Source: a virus (taxonomy: Duplodnaviria; Caudoviricetes). Taken from it: 64,000 bases of DNA. A program made the translations under genes and the position numbers. Below the pieces are notes generated by a model, which was given only the letters and a program-made list of their open reading frames with translations, was not told the origin of the DNA and searched no databases. Below are positions 29,003-35,185 of the stretch, in pieces; positions within the stretch are counted from its first letter, which is position 1, and the number at the start of each line of letters is the position of its first letter. Location: IMG/VR virus record IMGVR_UViG_3300044695_006401; one strand, written 5' to 3'.

Positions 29003-30532
29003 TTATTTAATTTTTGACATCAAATCTCTCATTCTCATGAATTGAGGATTCTCATAAGTTTTACTTTCAATTAAGTTTGTTGATGATCCGTTAGCTGGTG
29101 TTCTATTAACTTTTGTCTGAACTGACTCAGTTACCATCTCACCACCTTTACCATCTAATTCATTTTTAATTGACTTGTAAAGTGTTTTAGATTCCTTGAT
29201 AGATTCTACATTATCAAATCTTCTTAGAATATTTATTTTTTCTTGTTTTGTAGTGGAATGTTCAGTGAACAATCTTGTAGCATATGCCAAGTTTGAATTG
29301 AATACTGCAACTTCATTTAACTTAGATCTAAAGAAATTCAAAGCTTTTTTGTATTCTTCGTTTTTCTCTTTAATTAAATCAAGTTCTCTTTCTACAGATT
29401 CTTTTCTTAACTGACTTGGTGCTGCCACTCTGTCTCTTTCAGCTCTTCTTCTATATGTCATAGTTCTTGACGCTTCAGTTGTTTCAGGTTCCATCATACC
29501 TCCAGTAGCTTCAATATCTACCAAATCAACATCTTCTTCCATATCCCAACCTTCGAATGCCTCTTCAGTTTCGGTTTCAGTAACTCCATGTTTAATTTTA
29601 GGATATTTAAATTTACTTGCTTTACCCATTCCAACACCTTTTGTGCCTTGTGGTTGGTCTTCTTTGAACCCTTTGTTATTAACTGAAGTTTTAGCCATTC
29701 CTGTTCCTACTTTACCCATTCCCATTCCTACTGCTTTAAATGCTTCTACTACTGAGTGAAGATCTTCTTCATCGATTTCATAAATGGATTCTTCTTCAAC
29801 ATTTGAAAAATCATCTTGTCCGAATTGTACATTATCCAAGTCAACCATATAGTCTCCTTCTTCCATGTACATTTCTTCCATGTGATAATCACCTTCTTCA
29901 AATTCTTGTTCTTCCATGTGATAATCACCTTCTTCAAATTCTTGTTCTTCCATGTGATAATCACCTTCTTCCATTTCAATTTCGTAGATAACACTTTCTT
30001 CTAAATCCAACATTGGTTCTTCTGTATTATCGTCCATGTCTCCAGTTTGAATCAAATACTCATCTTCATCATCGATCAAGTGAATATAATCATCATCCTT
30101 CTTAACTATAATTCCATCTTCATCACCCATAGCTTTGAAAACTTTCAAAACTTCGTCAGGTGATGCCGAAGTCATGTCAAGTGGAGGCATTTCCATTTCA
30201 TTATCACCTTCTTCTTCACCATCTTCGGAATCCATACCAAAGACATATTCTGATTCAGGTTCTCCCCCCTCGTCTTCAACATCAATTACAGCCTCTTCTT
30301 CTTCGTCATCTGCAGTCGCAACTACAGGTTCTTCCATTTCAGGCTCTTCTTGTTCGTTTAGGGGTTTTTTTGTTTGTTTTGAATCTACTAAAGACTCTCT
30401 AACTAATTCGCTGATTTCTTGTTTCATTGTAGAAGCAAGTATTCCTTTTGCATTTTCACTGATAGCATTTTCAACAGCCTTAATTTGTAATAAGGTTTGT
30501 TCAACTATCGATCCTGTTTTTTCTGTACTCAT
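29003..30532 (-). CDS. prohead core scaffold protein (gp22-like), acidic
   Basis: Directly upstream of the capsid gene; very acidic; C-terminal coiled coil LNEVAVFNSNLAYATRLF. ATG 30532 preferred over TTG 30544. Confidence 0.75.
   Translation of the reverse strand: MSTEKTGSIVEQTLLQIKAVENAISENAKGILASTMKQEISELVRESLVDSKQTKKPLNEQEEPEMEEPVVATADDEEEEAVIDVEDEGGEPESEYVFGMDSEDGEEEGDNEMEMPPLDMTSASPDEVLKVFKAMGDEDGIIVKKDDDYIHLIDDEDEYLIQTGDMDDNTEEPMLDLEESVIYEIEMEEGDYHMEEQEFEEGDYHMEEQEFEEGDYHMEEMYMEEGDYMVDLDNVQFGQDDFSNVEEESIYEIDEEDLHSVVEAFKAVGMGMGKVGTGMAKTSVNNKGFKEDQPQGTKGVGMGKASKFKYPKIKHGVTETETEEAFEGWDMEEDVDLVDIEATGGMMEPETTEASRTMTYRRRAERDRVAAPSQLRKESVERELDLIKEKNEEYKKALNFFRSKLNEVAVFNSNLAYATRLFTEHSTTKQEKINILRRFDNVESIKESKTLYKSIKNELDGKGGEMVTESVQTKVNRTPANGSSTNLIESKTYENPQFMRMRDLMSKIK
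29873..29971. repeat. 36-bp coding tandem repeat (~2.75 copies; EEGDYHMEEQEF)
   Basis: TTCTTCCATGTGATAATCACCTTCTTCAAATTCTTG at 29873 and 29909, partial copy at 29945. Confidence 0.92.
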
Positions 30533-30567
30533 TATTTTAAGCAATGCGTTACGCGTTTATTTTACAG

Positions 30568-30909: not shown

Positions 30910-31617
30910 TTATTTTAAATAATCGGTCAATCTTTTCATTAAGTCAACAGATTTCTCTAAACCACTACCTGAAAAATTACTTTTATCATGTTCGGCAAGT
31001 TTTTCTTCATACTTTGGTCGGTCTTCCTTGTTTAAGTAAAGGTAAGCTCCTGGCGTTGACGGTGAAGAAACAAGATCAAAACAAATTAATTCAAAATCAT
31101 CCTGTACTTCATTTTGCTCACCTTTTTTTACCAAAGAACCAACACCACGAGAAGATACACCCATAGTAACACCCTGTCTCATCATGTTTGCTGCAACATC
31201 TCCTTTGGATGACACTATACCTCTTTCGTGAAAACCTGGAGTGGTTAATAATTTAATCTTACCCATTAAAACATTGTTTTCCCACCATATGTCAGTAATA
31301 AGATGTGATACTCTATCTAAGTCAATTAATGAAGACTCAGGATGGTTTAATTCAGAAATCGACATCCCTTTATTAATAAGTTCTTTATACTTATCAGCCT
31401 CTCTTCTTAATATGTTTTCAGGATAAACCCTACCGTTTCTGTTAGGTACTCCGTGTTTTTGTAATGTCGCATAGAACACAAAAGGTTTTGAGTGTTCTAA
31501 CTGTCCGTAAGATTCTTTTATTATATCGGTATTTCTCTCATCATTTGGATTGATGAATCCAGCATCCCATTCTACAAGTATTCCTTTACCACTATCATTC
31601 GGTCCTAAAATTTTCAT
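30910..31617 (-). CDS. gp21: prohead core protease (T4 gp21-like, S77)
   Basis: NRNGRVYP, ELNHP (catalytic His), GVSSRGVGS (catalytic Ser), FDLVSSPSTPGAY. Confidence 0.93.
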   Translation of the reverse strand: MKILGPNDSGKGILVEWDAGFINPNDERNTDIIKESYGQLEHSKPFVFYATLQKHGVPNRNGRVYPENILRREADKYKELINKGMSISELNHPESSLIDLDRVSHLITDIWWENNVLMGKIKLLTTPGFHERGIVSSKGDVAANMMRQGVTMGVSSRGVGSLVKKGEQNEVQDDFELICFDLVSSPSTPGAYLYLNKEDRPKYEEKLAEHDKSNFSGSGLEKSVDLMKRLTDYLK

Positions 31618-31640: not shown

Positions 31641-32090
31641 TTAGGAAATAACCATTTCTGGATTTTTTGTTTTATTAAGTGTAAAAAACTTACAATTTTT
31701 TAAATCGTCAGTGTATATTGCAGTTAATAGTGTTTTGATTTTATTTCTTAAAATAAGTGATTTGAATTCTACAAATTTATTATGAATGAAAAGTGTAATC
31801 TCTAAATTTAAAAAACTCTTTTTACCTTTTTGTATCCCACTTGTTCTCAAGTCTAAGTCGACTATTTGTTTCTTTTCGAAGAATGTGAAGTCTAATACTT
31901 CTAATAATGTGTGTTGTATTTGTCTTTTAATATGACCTGTTATTTTTTCCCAATTATCATAATCATCTGATGGTTGGATCCATGTCTGTAGTACTATGTA
32001 TATGGATTTCATTTCTTTTGAATCTACCGTACCATAGTAACATTTAGCATCATCAAAAACATTTAATTTCGATGTTTTTCCTTTTTTCAT
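31641..32090 (-). CDS. hypothetical protein
   Basis: 149-aa ORF in the head module with its own upstream promoter-like sequence. Confidence 0.8.
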   Translation of the reverse strand: MKKGKTSKLNVFDDAKCYYGTVDSKEMKSIYIVLQTWIQPSDDYDNWEKITGHIKRQIQHTLLEVLDFTFFEKKQIVDLDLRTSGIQKGKKSFLNLEITLFIHNKFVEFKSLILRNKIKTLLTAIYTDDLKNCKFFTLNKTKNPEMVIS

Positions 32091-32121: not shown

Positions 32122-32153
32122 CAATTATAATAAAAATAAACATCGTTGTCAAA
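32122..32153 (-). promoter_or_regulatory. sigma70-type promoter (TTGACA-N17-TATAAT; also TTTG-N20-TATAATTG)
   Basis: TGTCAA at 32147-32152 and ATTATA at 32124-32129 on +, 17-nt spacer. Confidence 0.55.
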
Positions 32154-32170
32154 AATCGAAAAATCTTGTA

Positions 32171-32177
32171 TATTTAT
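32171..32177 (+). promoter_or_regulatory. putative late promoter motif upstream of bS21
   Basis: GTATATTTATATC, 20 nt before ATG 32198. Confidence 0.55.
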
Positions 32178-32181
32178 ATCA

Positions 32182-32189
32182 AAAGGAGG
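32182..32189 (+). promoter_or_regulatory. Shine-Dalgarno sequence of the bS21 gene
   Basis: AAAGGAGG, 8 nt upstream of ATG 32198. Confidence 0.85.
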
Positions 32190-32197
32190 AAAAAAAT

Positions 32198-32380
32198 ATG
32201 ATTATAGTACCAGTAAAAAACCCTAACTCTATTGAGCAAGCACTTAAACAATATAAATTTAAAGTGTATAAAACAAAACAAATCGAAAGGTTGAGGGAAT
32301 TACAGGAGTTTACGAAACCTTCAGTTTCAAAAAGAGACCAGAAGAAAAAGGCAGCTTATTTACAAAAAAAGAATAACTAG
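32198..32380 (+). CDS. rpsU: phage-encoded ribosomal protein bS21 (Bacteroidota type)
   Basis: MIIVPVK...IEQALKQYKFK...LRELQEFTKPSVSKR...KAAYLQ; 60 aa, basic; lies in the head module. Confidence 0.92.
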   Translation: MIIVPVKNPNSIEQALKQYKFKVYKTKQIERLRELQEFTKPSVSKRDQKKKAAYLQKKNN

Positions 32381-32617
32381 TTATTTGTTGTCACCTTTTT
32401 TGTGTGTAAAGAAATCGACTGAAGTCAAACCTAAACACCCAAAGGCCAACAGACCTACAGCATCCACCAAAGTTGATGATGGTTCGTATTTTCCACAACT
32501 AAACATAGATATAAATAATCCTACAATTAGGGATAATCCACAAAGAAGACCAATAAACCTTTTAGAGGAAATCCCCCCATTTGCCCCTTCCATCATTGAT
32601 TTAAAAAACCTAATCAT
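32381..32617 (-). CDS. small two-TM membrane protein (holin-like candidate)
   Basis: SSKRF followed by two hydrophobic segments and a basic C-terminus. Confidence 0.55.
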   Translation of the reverse strand: MIRFFKSMMEGANGGISSKRFIGLLCGLSLIVGLFISMFSCGKYEPSSTLVDAVGLLAFGCLGLTSVDFFTHKKGDNK

Positions 32618-33345
32618 AATCCTTGACTTAAACCCCTCAACTTATAAAGATTGAATCTATCATAAGGTGATTCATTAATTTTTTTGATTGTATTTTCTAT
32701 TGTTGATTTTAAATCAGATTCTGTCGATTCGTTCAAAGTAGATTTCAAATTAGAAATAACATTTTCTTTAAGTTGGTCCATTTCGGTTTTGATTTCTTCA
32801 TCCGACATAGATGACAACTCCTCTATAACTTTTCTTTCTGATTCTGAAATATTTTTTAATTCTAATTTAATATTTTCTTCAGCAACCTTAACCATTGTTG
32901 AAATTGGTAAGTTAACGCTTTCTATTATATCTTCTTTCTTTTCTTCTAAAATAATATTAGACTTAATTTTTCTTTTAGATTCTAAAACCGTGGATAGGTC
33001 TTTGATTGATTTCTTATATATCGTATTATCAATATCCTTGTATTCATTAGTATGTTCCAATACAATAGAATCAATCCAATTACTTACCTTTGTAATATGT
33101 TTTGAATTACCTTCAACTAAAATTTGAGAATACTCAACAGTTTCATTTATGTAATCTTCGGCGATAGATTCATTAATACCCTTGTTAGAAGATAAATCAT
33201 CGTAGATATAATATAACTCAGCAATGTCTTTGTTTTCTAAAACCATTGATTTAAATTGTTTCAAAAAAGATTTAAATTCAGGTTTTCCGTATAAACCGAT
33301 AGATGCTTTTTCTATTTTTGTTTTTATAGTGCCAAAAGTGTTCAT
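32614..33345 (-). CDS. hypothetical helical protein in the head module
   Basis: 243 aa; late motif at 33358-33364. Confidence 0.8.
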   Translation of the reverse strand: MNTFGTIKTKIEKASIGLYGKPEFKSFLKQFKSMVLENKDIAELYYIYDDLSSNKGINESIAEDYINETVEYSQILVEGNSKHITKVSNWIDSIVLEHTNEYKDIDNTIYKKSIKDLSTVLESKRKIKSNIILEEKKEDIIESVNLPISTMVKVAEENIKLELKNISESERKVIEELSSMSDEEIKTEMDQLKENVISNLKSTLNESTESDLKSTIENTIKKINESPYDRFNLYKLRGLSQGL

Positions 33346-33364
33346 AGTTTTTATTTAATAAATA

Positions 33365-35185
33365 TTACTTATTCAATAAAGATTTAACTCTTTCATCTAT
33401 TTCAATCAACGAGTTTCTTCCTTTAGATAATTCTATAACATCTGCAGAATTAAATAATGACAAATCTTCCAATATTAAATCTAATCCATCTTTATTAAAA
33501 CTTTCAGGTGTTACCCCTCCAGGTTCAGGTGATGGTGAGCCTTCAGGTGGTGGTGGGGCTCCTCCGCCTAAATCTCCACCTCCCATATCCATATCACCTC
33601 CTTCAGGTGCCGCACCTCCTTCAGGTGTTGCTTCACCATCTTTTTTACCGTAAAGTTGGTCTATAGTATCAAAAAGTCCGGTTTTAGGTATACTCTCAGC
33701 AGTTTTTACAAGTTCTGCAGCCACTGCCCTTTCTACCCTTTGTTGTTGTATATCTAATCTTATTTCTTCATCTGAGAACCCTAAGATATGTTTTTTAGCC
33801 CAAGACGCTGAAACAGGGGCTACTGTGTCTGCGATAGGTGTAACTGCATCTTTATACAGAAGTATTTTTTCCTTCCATAGTTCGATTGAAAGTAATTCAG
33901 ATTGTTTAGATGGATTGTGTAAACCTAATGTGAAGTTTGTTAATTCGTCTTCAAAACCTAATAAAAAAAGATGAATAATTGCAATTTTATTTAATTCTGC
34001 AATCATAGACTTTTGAATTCTATTGATAGTTCTCGCAAAACGAATATCTAATAATGATAAATTTTTACCATCACCTACCGCCTCTTCGAATCCTAAATAA
34101 GCCTTAGGTATTCTAAGAGCTGTAACTAATTTCTTTTGAATATACTCAATGTCTGCGATTTCAGCTAAGTTCGTACCACCTGGTAATGTTTCAATAGGGT
34201 TGGTTGCTGCCGGATCACGAACAGGAATGAAATAATCTTGGTCTACCGCCATTTGATTATACCTCATATCGACATTACCTGTTGAGTGATCAACAATTTG
34301 ATCTCTTTTAAATTTATTAGCAACTCTTTGTACATATGGGTCAACATCTTTGTCGTCCATGTTACCGACAAATACTTTAAATACTCTTCTTTCAGGTGCT
34401 CTAGATACACGATAGATTAACATCGCATCTTCAGAAAGTAATAATTGTTTCCAAATTCTACGAGCCTTTTCGAGCATCGATGTACCATACGGTAGTTTTC
34501 TATCGTCACCTAAAATTCTAAAGTGTGCTACTTCCCAAGTATTGAACTCCATGTTTTTTTCCTTCCAAGTAAACTTCAAAGCGTCGTTTTCCATTTCTTG
34601 TGAGTACTTATCAGGTTGAAACCTCATCCCTTTTTCTAATCTTTCGATTTGAATGTTTGGTAGTTGTTGACATCCAACAATACCATTTTCAGGATCTAAC
34701 TTAAGATATACAAAGTTGTCACCAAACTTACATGTGTTTCTTGTCCACATTGGTAAGTTGGTGTTAATATCCAATTTATTAACAAAAAGATCGATTAATA
34801 CTGATTTTATTCTTTTTGATTCAGAATAAACTTTTAATATAAGTCCATCTTGATCTGGTGTTGTGGATTCTTCAGAATAAATGTCTAATGCCGCAGAAAT
34901 TTCAGGTGTATATTCCATAGATTCATAATCATAGTATGACGCCATTCTTGTTGGTTCATAATATACCGCTTGTTGGTATAAATTATTTTCTACTTTTTGC
35001 CATTGTTGGCCGATATACATTGTCTGCTGAGATTGTAATTTTTCTTTTTCAAACTCAGATTTATCTGTTGTCTTTAATAGCTCCTTTTTATCAAATTTGA
35101 ATACGGGAGATTGTTGGTCAAGGGTTGCATTAGGACCAAAAGTCCTACTCAATCTTTGCCACACCGTTAATTTTTGTTCTGACAT
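33365..35185 (-). CDS. gp20: portal protein (T4 gp20-like)
   Basis: YTPEISAALDIY, PYGTSMLEKARRIWKQL, EDAMLIYRVSRAPERRVF, IETLPGG, KLVTALRIP. Confidence 0.95.
   Translation of the reverse strand: MSEQKLTVWQRLSRTFGPNATLDQQSPVFKFDKKELLKTTDKSEFEKEKLQSQQTMYIGQQWQKVENNLYQQAVYYEPTRMASYYDYESMEYTPEISAALDIYSEESTTPDQDGLILKVYSESKRIKSVLIDLFVNKLDINTNLPMWTRNTCKFGDNFVYLKLDPENGIVGCQQLPNIQIERLEKGMRFQPDKYSQEMENDALKFTWKEKNMEFNTWEVAHFRILGDDRKLPYGTSMLEKARRIWKQLLLSEDAMLIYRVSRAPERRVFKVFVGNMDDKDVDPYVQRVANKFKRDQIVDHSTGNVDMRYNQMAVDQDYFIPVRDPAATNPIETLPGGTNLAEIADIEYIQKKLVTALRIPKAYLGFEEAVGDGKNLSLLDIRFARTINRIQKSMIAELNKIAIIHLFLLGFEDELTNFTLGLHNPSKQSELLSIELWKEKILLYKDAVTPIADTVAPVSASWAKKHILGFSDEEIRLDIQQQRVERAVAAELVKTAESIPKTGLFDTIDQLYGKKDGEATPEGGAAPEGGDMDMGGGDLGGGAPPPPEGSPSPEPGGVTPESFNKDGLDLILEDLSLFNSADVIELSKGRNSLIEIDERVKSLLNK

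What the first reader, a model, noticed from the sequence alone, without database searches (positions are those of the whole stretch)
32171..32380. Phage bS21 keeps both halves of the Flavobacterium anti-SD autoregulation circuit (strong SD plus Tyr54)
Seen: AAAGGAGG lies 8 nt before the bS21 ATG. None of the other starts I inspected (capsid, portal, protease, terminase, clpC, peptidase, exported proteins, first GT) has an SD; they are A/T-rich. The protein ends KKKAAY54LQ, and a putative late motif precedes the SD. Established: Bacteroidota ribosomes hide the 16S anti-SD in a bS21/bS18/bS6 pocket that involves the bS21 C-terminal Tyr. Flavobacteriales rpsU is unusual in having a strong SD, so ribosomes lacking bS21 translate it preferentially. 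Phage bS21 beside head genes is already known. Inference: the phage captured the sensor as well as the protein. Phage bS21 would be made when bS21-deficient ribosomes accumulate late in infection, restoring ribosomes suited to SD-less phage late mRNAs.
Basis: partly seen in the sequence, partly recalled or inferred. Interest (0 to 1): 0.88.

Follow-up and report, generated by a model that had tools for sequence, protein, structure and literature searches.

The report
Phage bS21 gene with Shine-Dalgarno leader
A large lake-water phage of Bacteroidota carries a ribosomal protein bS21 gene that, unlike every other gene start in the window and about 90% of related phage bS21 genes, sits behind a Shine-Dalgarno sequence. 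This sequence arose recently inside one phage subclade and may tie phage bS21 synthesis to ribosomes that lack bS21, but it is weaker than the host's version and untested.

Summary
Window 32198-32380 (+) encodes a 60-aa bS21 with Tyr54. AAAGGAGG (32182-32189) lies 8 nt before the ATG and is the only strong SD among 72 called gene starts.

- The SD occurs in one small phage clade of three sublineages.
- About 90% of related phage bS21 genes, and all 21 more distant ones sampled, have an A/T-rich leader without a strong SD.
- A rooted head-gene tree nests the SD clade inside SD-less phages. Its leader differs from the nearest sister leader by two A-to-G changes.
- The SD was therefore gained in place, not captured with the host gene.
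- It gives 8 bp and -12.2 kcal/mol. Flavobacteriaceae rpsU leaders score -17.5 to -21.3 on the same metric. The published rpsU range is 9-13 bp, with a criterion of < -13.
- A 7-nt SD reporter did respond to bS21 loss in F. johnsoniae, so occupancy-sensitive translation is plausible but unproven.

Tyr54 and the head-gene context are already published. I found no paper reporting an SD on a phage bS21 gene. I rate this a new variant of a known kind, of moderate interest.

The parts
32146..32154 (+). TTGTCAAAA, a conserved -33-like element (TTG) of the bS21 promoter
   Evidence: Conserved in nearly all phage relatives at a fixed distance from the downstream box. It lies 20 nt before the TAnnTTTA box. 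Its reading as a Bacteroidota sigma-A -33 element is inferred.
32169..32179 (+).
   Evidence: Conserved in all 80 IMG/VR relatives. The TATTTATA core lies 9-27 nt before several other gene starts in the window. The sigma-A -7 box spans -12 to -5 in F. psychrophilum (PMC9723704). That predicts +1 at about 32181-32183 and a leader of 15-17 nt. The transcription start is not mapped.
32182..32189 (+). Shine-Dalgarno sequence AAAGGAGG, giving 8 consecutive pairs with 16S CCUCCUUU
   Evidence: Unique 8-mer in the window. Scores -12.2 kcal/mol against -9.1 or weaker for all other gene starts. Invariant in three sublineages whose third codon positions are 32-40% diverged. Absent from sister and other clades.
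32190..32197 (+). A-rich spacer AAAAAAAT (8 nt), with A at -3 and -6
   Evidence: Spacer length varies from 6 to 9 nt among SD-clade members. The leader is unstructured.
32198..32380 (+). bS21 (rpsU-like) gene, 60 aa, with the Tyr54 codon at 32357-32359
   Evidence: Pfam and TIGRFAM matches above cutoff. Ungapped alignment to 7JIL chain z with Y54 aligned. Tyr54 is invariant in 21 phage variants.
30910..32090 (-). Divergent head-module neighbours: a conserved 149-aa protein (31641-32090) and a T4-type prohead protease (30910-31617)
   Evidence: Pfam Peptidase_S77 on the homologous gene of relatives. Same layout in all relatives.
32381..35185 (-). Convergent neighbours: a 78-aa hydrophobic ORF, a conserved 243-aa protein and a T4-type portal (33365-35185)
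   Evidence: Portal_T4 on the homologue. The portal is 35-37% identical to those of Microcystis phage Mel-JY01 and Flavobacterium phage immuto.

Best explanation
This is the bS21 gene of a T4-like, at least 241-kb lake-water phage of Bacteroidota. It is transcribed on its own from a conserved -33/-7-type promoter, on the strand opposite the head genes, with a very short A-rich leader. In one phage subclade, two or three A-to-G changes turned that leader into an 8-nt Shine-Dalgarno sequence at working distance from the ATG. Bacteroidia ribosomes hide the anti-SD under bS21/bS18/bS6 and expose it only when bS21 is missing. This mRNA should therefore be read relatively better by bS21-free 30S subunits than any other phage mRNA. 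Its Tyr54-bearing product should then re-occupy the site and hide the anti-SD again. That would be a modest, convergently evolved copy of the host rpsU feedback. Shown: the gene identity, Tyr54, the SD and its uniqueness at gene starts, its restriction to one nested clade, and its weakness relative to host leaders. Inferred: the transcription start, the response to bS21 occupancy, incorporation of phage bS21 into ribosomes, and any benefit to the phage.
For: The gene is bS21 with Tyr54 aligned to F. johnsoniae bS21. It has the only strong SD among 72 gene starts. The spacer is 8 nt here and 6-9 nt in relatives. The leader is unstructured. The SD is invariant in three sublineages despite 32-40% divergence at third codon positions and changed flanks. 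The chance of such an SD in a leader of the relatives' bS21-leader composition is 3.5e-5. In F. johnsoniae, a 7-nt AGGAGGU placed at the same leader positions raised reporter output 1.4- to 2-fold on bS21 loss or mutation. Ribosomes from the bS21 C-terminal truncation strain, which largely lack bS21, barely initiate on SD-less mRNAs (PMC9976891). The head-gene tree and the leader alignment show gain in place.
Against: The helix is 8 bp and -12.2 kcal/mol, against -17.5 to -21.3 for SD-bearing Flavobacteriaceae rpsU on the same metric. It falls below the published 9-13 bp, < -13 kcal/mol signature. McNutt et al. argue that an extended SD is needed for regulation. About 90% of related phages do without it. 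Against the conservation level of the whole intergenic region, SD invariance is not significant (about 0.15). If the start site is 2-4 nt further downstream than predicted, part of the SD is not transcribed. The host of this subclade is unknown. No RNA 5' ends could be obtained.
Confidence: 0.45

Rival explanations
1. The SD is an incidental, functionally neutral variant of a purine-rich leader. G's drift in and out of the A-run, host ribosomes ignore SDs, and the SD has no regulatory consequence.
For: Relatives show a graded series of leaders: AAAAAAAGAAAAAA, AAAAAGAGAAAAAA, AAAAGGAAAAAAA, AAAAGGGAAAAAA and AAAAAGGGTAAAA. Only two transitions separate the L008 leader from the SD. 0.5% of random 20-nt windows reach the same energy, and stronger complements sit harmlessly in coding regions. 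Conservation within the clade is not significant against the intergenic background.
Against: The coincidence falls on the one gene for which an SD has a known meaning in this phylum. The chance is 3.5e-5 with leader composition. Allowing for roughly 10 to 39 independent lineages, that is still about 1e-3. McNutt et al. report that SDs are under-represented at Flavobacteriales gene starts, and that a strong SD lowered reporter output in wild-type cells, so a neutral status is doubtful. The SD is kept in three sublineages with 6-9 nt spacers.
Confidence: 0.3
2. One reading: the phage captured host rpsU together with its SD sensor, and the SD is ancestral to phage bS21.
For: The core AAAGGAGG is a sub-string of the host rpsU SD GAAAGGAGGTG. 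The bS21-only tree leaves the base of the phage clade unresolved.
Against: The SD clade is nested, as ((SD, 5 SD-less) 97, 3 SD-less) 98, in a protease+portal tree rooted with two cultured phages. That means one gain against at least three losses. Phage bS21 proteins form one group and are at most 60% identical to any bacterial one, so there is no sign of a fresh capture in the SD clade. The leader and promoter are homologous to those of SD-less phages. The host-type extensions are missing. No other phage bS21 lineage sampled has a strong SD.
Confidence: 0.05
3. A competitor or decoy reading. The SD lets phage bS21 mRNA compete with host rpsU mRNA for bS21-free 30S subunits. Ribosomes vacated during infection would then be refilled with phage rather than host bS21, blunting the host feedback that McNutt et al. 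proposed as a counter-defence.
For: The sequence facts are the same as for the best explanation. McNutt et al. speculate that phages may remove host bS21 and that host autoregulation would answer this. Chen et al. report late co-expression of bS21 with head genes.
Against: Per molecule, the host leader pairs about 5-9 kcal/mol better. There is no evidence that host bS21 is displaced or degraded. Most related phages lack the SD.
Confidence: 0.1
4. The host of this subclade, or the infected cell, uses SDs generally, and the SD is simply a strong ribosome-binding site for a highly expressed gene.
For: The SD has canonical spacing and is accessible.
Against: None of the other 71 gene starts in 64 kb has one, including the major head genes, which need far more protein. 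The promoter motifs and the bS21 relationships point to Bacteroidota.
Confidence: 0.05

Closest known systems
SD-dependent autoregulation of rpsU (bS21) in Flavobacterium johnsoniae and other Bacteroidota (McNutt et al. 2023, PMC9976891; structural basis in Jha et al. 2021, PMC7797042)
   Same: Same protein family with Tyr54. It is the only SD-bearing gene start in an otherwise SD-less gene set. The gene appears monocistronic with a short leader. The SD lies at the same leader positions as the SD reporters that responded to bS21 loss.
   Different: The gene is phage-encoded. The helix is 8 bp at -12.2 kcal/mol instead of 9-13 bp at -14 to -21. It lacks the 5' G and the 3' UG(AU) extension. It arose independently by point mutation in one phage subclade. 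No functional data exist.
bS21-encoding T4-like myophages of freshwater Bacteroidetes (Chen et al. 2022, PMC9723584)
   Same: bS21 lies on the reverse strand inside the terminase/portal/protease/capsid block, between two conserved hypothetical genes. Tyr54 or another aromatic residue is kept. Genomes are large (the exact protein is seen on a 241-kb contig) and come from lake water.
   Different: That paper does not mention a ribosome-binding site, an SD or a promoter upstream of bS21. The SD subclade is a minority within this phage group.
Other phage-encoded bS21 genes (Mizuno et al. 2019, cited in PMC9976891; huge phages LR7565xx; Microcystis phage Mel-JY01)
   Same: A small bS21 homologue, often close to head genes. 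Mel-JY01 has RpsU two genes after its prohead protease.
   Different: None of the 21 distant IMG/VR loci nor Mel-JY01 has a strong SD. The best is TAGGAGA at -9.6.

Membership tests
Ribosomal protein bS21 (Pfam PF01165 / TIGR00030) | Sequence match above the curated cutoffs over the full length | tested here: met
   38.2 bits against a cutoff of 27, and 31.3 against 28.95. Ungapped alignment of residues 1-57 to PDB 7JIL chain z.
Bacteroidia-type bS21 (anti-SD-sequestering) | Tyr (aromatic) at position 54, which stacks on A1534 | tested here: met
   Y54 aligns with Y54 of F. johnsoniae bS21. It is invariant in 21 phage variants. The stacking itself was not tested.
Bacteroidota rpsU SD-dependent autoregulation (McNutt 2023) | Extended SD: 9-13 consecutive pairs, with pairing energy < -13 kcal/mol | tested here: not met
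   8 pairs and -12.2 kcal/mol by ViennaRNA duplexfold. 28 of 79 bacterial rpsU leaders fetched here score -17.5 to -21.3 on the same metric. The energy scales of the two programs may differ by about 1 kcal/mol, so this is a near miss.
Bacteroidota rpsU SD-dependent autoregulation (McNutt 2023) | The bS21 gene is the clear, essentially sole SD-bearing gene start of the genome | tested here: met
   It ranks first of 72 gene starts by 3 kcal/mol, and by more than 5 kcal/mol over any canonical core. Only 64 kb of a genome of at least 241 kb could be examined.
Bacteroidota rpsU SD-dependent autoregulation (McNutt 2023) | Translation rises when bS21 is depleted or its C-terminus or Tyr54 is mutated | not testable with these tools
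   This needs reporter or in vitro initiation assays. The 7-nt SD tuf reporter in the paper responded 1.4- to 2-fold.
Bacteroidota rpsU SD-dependent autoregulation (McNutt 2023) | The SD lies within the transcribed leader of a monocistronic mRNA | tested here: inconclusive
   The conserved -33/-7-type promoter predicts +1 at 32181-32183, which would include all or most of the SD. RNA runs were held only as contigs, so no 5' ends were available.
bS21-encoding Bacteroidetes myophages (Chen 2022) | bS21 on the reverse strand within the conserved head-gene block of a T4-like phage | tested here: met
   Protease (Peptidase_S77) and portal (Portal_T4) flank it on the opposite strand. There are 172 relatives in IMG/VR with the same layout.

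The most novel reading that the evidence does not exclude
A phage subclade has convergently evolved, by two or three point mutations, its own version of the host's specialised-ribosome sensor. Phage bS21 mRNA would then be preferentially read by bS21-free 30S subunits and would compete with host rpsU mRNA for them. Ribosomes vacated during infection would be refilled with the phage protein. The SD-plus clade and its SD-minus sister clade would form a natural experiment on this circuit.
Probability: 0.35. Interest if true: 0.8.

Novelty: new variant of a known kind. Interest (0 to 1): 0.5.

Why it matters
bS21-free ribosomes in Flavobacterium are one of the clearest cases of specialised ribosomes in bacteria, and bS21 is the ribosomal protein most often carried by phages. 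A phage bS21 gene wired to the same sensor would link the two observations. It would suggest that phage and host compete for vacant bS21 sites. It also offers a very cheap test: the SD-plus leader and the SD-minus sister leader differ by two bases, and the strains and reporters already exist. If the SD proves inert, it would show that an 8-bp SD can drift into a Bacteroidota leader without consequence, which helps define how much pairing the host circuit needs.

Tried and rejected
- No whole genome is held for this window, so SD statistics cover 64 kb only.
- The bS21-only tree (64 columns) left the base of the phage clade unresolved and could not tell gain from loss. I replaced it with a four-protein head-gene tree and a rooted protease+portal tree. 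The outgroup branch is very long, so the rooting is supportive rather than decisive. The midpoint root agrees.
- Laying public RNA runs gave contigs only. Two metatranscriptome runs cover the neighbouring genes at full identity but not bS21, and no 5' ends are visible.
- Host assignment of the SD clade could not be attempted.
- I considered the conserved TATATTTATA as a T4-type late promoter (TATAAATA) on the minus strand. In same-direction gene contexts the sense orientation is TATTTATA in 4 of 5 cases, and a conserved TTG lies 20 nt upstream on the plus strand. I therefore read it as the bS21 promoter, without proof.
- I considered the strong anti-SD complements inside the portal and scaffold genes as possible internal starts. 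They fall in variable Gly/Glu-rich tracts and are not conserved in position, so I treat them as coding by-products.
- Literature searches for an SD or autoregulation on phage bS21 found none. The library is not complete.

Full report
WHAT IS THERE. Window 32198-32380 (+) is a 60-codon ORF. It matches Pfam Ribosomal_S21 and TIGR00030 above their curated cutoffs. It aligns without a gap from residue 1 to bS21 of the Flavobacterium johnsoniae ribosome (PDB 7JIL chain z), with Tyr54 opposite Tyr54. So the start codon and the Tyr54 claim both hold. AAAGGAGG lies at 32182-32189, followed by the 8-nt spacer AAAAAAAT and the ATG. The gene lies on the strand opposite a T4-type head module: prohead protease, a conserved 149-aa protein, a conserved 243-aa protein and the portal. 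The exact protein is on record on 95 contigs, the longest 241 kb. The DNA is found in many lake-water metagenomes. This is the phage group described by Chen et al. 2022 (PMC9723584). That paper already reports the reverse-strand position among head genes and the conserved Tyr54.

IS THE SD EXCEPTIONAL? The 8-mer occurs once on both strands of the window. I scored the 20 nt before each of 72 greedily called ORF starts against the 16S tail GAUCACCUCCUUUCU. bS21 scored -12.2 kcal/mol. The next best was -9.1, and that is a distant GGTGAT, not an SD core. All named structural genes were weaker than -5. The leader is predicted to be unstructured. There is a qualification. When every start codon is scanned, stronger complements appear inside coding regions. 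Examples are AAGGAGGTGAT before in-frame ATGs in the Gly/Glu-rich C-terminal tract of the portal (-19.7), and the EEGDYHM repeats of the acidic scaffold-like protein. Overall, 0.5% of all 20-nt windows reach -12.2. These tracts vary between relatives and look like coding by-products. With the A/T-rich composition of the relatives' SD-less bS21 leaders, the chance of -12.2 or better is 3.5e-5 per leader. The statement 'only strong SD at a gene start' therefore stands. 'Only anti-SD complement in the window' does not.

RELATIVES.
- 80 IMG/VR loci encode bS21 that is 67-88% identical and sits in the same context.
- Only L001-L007 (86-88% identity) carry AAAAGGAGG. The other 73 have leaders such as GTAAAAAAAGAAAAAATT or TTATAAAGTAAAAAAAAT, scoring -5.1 or weaker.
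- Assembly loci for intermediate proteins show a third SD sublineage at 92% identity, with spacers of 6-7 nt. They also show an SD-less group at 81-82% identity.
- I ran a pattern scan of metagenome contigs anchored on the promoter and the first codons, and so blind to the SD. It returned 38 loci, of which 3 have the SD, all of the L001 type.
- 21 loci from about ten more distant phage bS21 lineages, and Microcystis phage Mel-JY01, have no strong SD. The best is TAGGAGA at -9.6.
- Among 39 distinct phage bS21 sequences in the first tree, 4 are SD-bearing.

GAIN OR CAPTURE? In the bS21 tree, all phage proteins form one group separated from 63 bacterial ones by a long, fully supported branch. 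The base of the phage group is unresolved. A tree of four flanking head proteins (1233 columns) makes the SD loci one clade (100). It is sister (99) to an SD-less clade containing L008, L009, L011, L039, L058, L161, L163, L167 and L168. Rooting a protease+portal tree with Flavobacterium phage immuto and Microcystis phage Mel-JY01 gives ((SD, 5 SD-less) 97, 3 SD-less) 98, inside a basal polytomy of further SD-less lineages. That means one gain against at least three losses. The outgroup branch is long, which is a caveat, but the midpoint root agrees. The leader alignment shows that the promoter blocks and the A-rich leader are homologous throughout. The L008 leader AAAAAGAGAAAAAA differs from AAAAGGAGGAAAAA by two A-to-G transitions, and L009 has AAAAAAAGAAAAAA. 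No bacterial bS21 is more than 60% identical to the phage protein. The SD therefore arose in place. It was not carried in with the gene.

COMPARISON WITH THE HOST CIRCUIT. I fetched 80 Bacteroidota rpsU loci, of which 79 had a leader that could be scored. 28 of those 79 have extended SDs: GAAAGGAGGTG in Flavobacteriaceae, and AAAAGGAGGTGAT in some rumen Bacteroidales MAGs. These score -17.5 to -21.3 on my metric. Crocinitomicaceae, Saprospiraceae and many others have none. McNutt et al. 2023 give 9-13 consecutive pairs, -14 to -21 kcal/mol and a criterion of < -13 kcal/mol for rpsU. They argue that the extended helix is needed. The phage SD, at 8 pairs and -12.2, is a near miss on that defining feature. 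It resembles the weaker class they describe for rpsR and other genes. On the other hand, their tuf reporter responded. It carried a 7-nt AGGAGGU at the same leader positions, replacing the A's at -12 and -13. Its output rose more than 2-fold with the C-terminal truncation, 1.7-fold with Y54A and 1.4- to 1.7-fold on depletion. Ribosomes from the truncation strain, which largely lack bS21, barely initiated on SD-less mRNAs. A modest occupancy-dependent effect on the phage mRNA is therefore mechanistically reasonable.

PROMOTER AND TRANSCRIPT. TTGTCAAAA (32146-32154) and TATATTTATAT (32169-32179) are conserved across all clades at fixed spacing. The sigma-A -7 box TAnnTTTG spans -12 to -5 in F. 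psychrophilum (PMC9723704). Reading TAtaTTTA as that box puts +1 at about 32181, and reading TATTTATA as the box puts it at about 32183. Either way the SD would sit at the extreme 5' end of a 15-17 nt leader, and a slightly later start would clip it. The TATTTATA core also precedes several other genes by 9-27 nt. Its reverse complement is the T4 late consensus TATAAATA, so the strand assignment is not proven. Public RNA runs were available only as contigs. Two metatranscriptomes cover the neighbouring genes at full identity but not bS21, and no ends are visible.

IS THE SD UNDER SELECTION? Within the SD clade the three sublineages differ at 32-40% of third codon positions of bS21, and at 12-17% of intergenic positions. 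The sequence between the box and the SD differs (TC, AT, CC) and the A-run length varies, yet AAAAGGAGG is unchanged. Against the synonymous rate, invariance of 8 sites is unlikely, at roughly 0.004 by a simple star-tree estimate. Against the intergenic rate it is not unlikely, at about 0.15. The evidence is suggestive only.

VERDICT. The 'captured sensor' origin is contradicted, and the feature is not a property of phage bS21 in general. I give 0.45 to a functional, convergently gained, weak occupancy-sensitive SD. I give 0.10 to the competitor variant of it, 0.30 to a neutral leader variant, 0.05 to ancestral capture and 0.05 to a plain strong ribosome-binding site. I found no paper reporting an SD upstream of a phage bS21 gene. 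McNutt et al. discuss phage bS21 only as a possible trigger for host autoregulation. The scan's own notes hold a second first-reader note on this same stretch with the same reading. That is not independent evidence.

Noticed in passing
window 33565-33620 (-), inside the portal gene 33365-35185: The strongest anti-SD complement in the window is AAGGAGGTGAT (11 nt, -19.7 kcal/mol). It lies just before two in-frame ATGs (33592, 33586) in the Gly/Glu/Pro-rich C-terminal tract of the portal. The tract is variable among relatives, so this looks like a by-product of PEGG coding.
   Followed up: partly
window 29003-30544 (-): An acidic scaffold-like protein has tandem EEGDYHMEEQEF repeats. Each repeat places GAAGGTGAT (-13.7 to -16.4 kcal/mol) before an in-frame ATG.
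   Followed up: no
window 24384, 30637(-), 39448(-), 40257(-), 40822(-), 45172(-), 47803(-): The core TATTTATA lies 9-27 nt (up to 93 nt) before several gene starts in sense orientation. It is the reverse complement of the T4 late promoter TATAAATA. In some cases it ends only 1-3 nt before the ATG, which would imply leaderless mRNAs or wrongly called starts.
   Followed up: partly
window 32381-32617 (-): A 78-aa hydrophobic ORF, probably with two membrane segments, is convergent with bS21. It is present in the SD clade (L164, L165) but absent at this position in the SD-less sister clade (L161, L167).
   Followed up: no
L122, L124, L127, L137, L141, L158, L159 (Flagellimonas/Allomuricauda, Tenacibaculum skagerrakense): A long-branch group of SD-less bS21-like genes occurs in Flavobacteriaceae genomes, with a divergent C-terminus (AQYKEKFLNEQENS). 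These may be second bS21 paralogues or prophage-borne copies.
   Followed up: no
L109, L121, L123, L125 (rumen Bacteroidales MAGs): These rpsU leaders carry AAAAGGAGGTGAT (-19.8 kcal/mol). McNutt et al. found no Bacteroidales meeting their extended-SD criterion.
   Followed up: no
L171 10749-10976 (Microcystis phage Mel-JY01): A cultured cyanophage has an annotated RpsU two genes after its prohead protease, on the same strand as the head genes. Its portal is the closest cultured match (35%) to the window's portal.
   Followed up: no
window 30928-31123, 31925-32078, 32613-32885: Contigs from two metatranscriptome runs (estuary and another metagenome) match the protease, the 149-aa gene and the 243-aa gene at 99-100% identity. 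This phage or a near-identical one may be transcribed in nature, though DNA carry-over in these libraries was not excluded. bS21 itself was not covered.
   Followed up: partly
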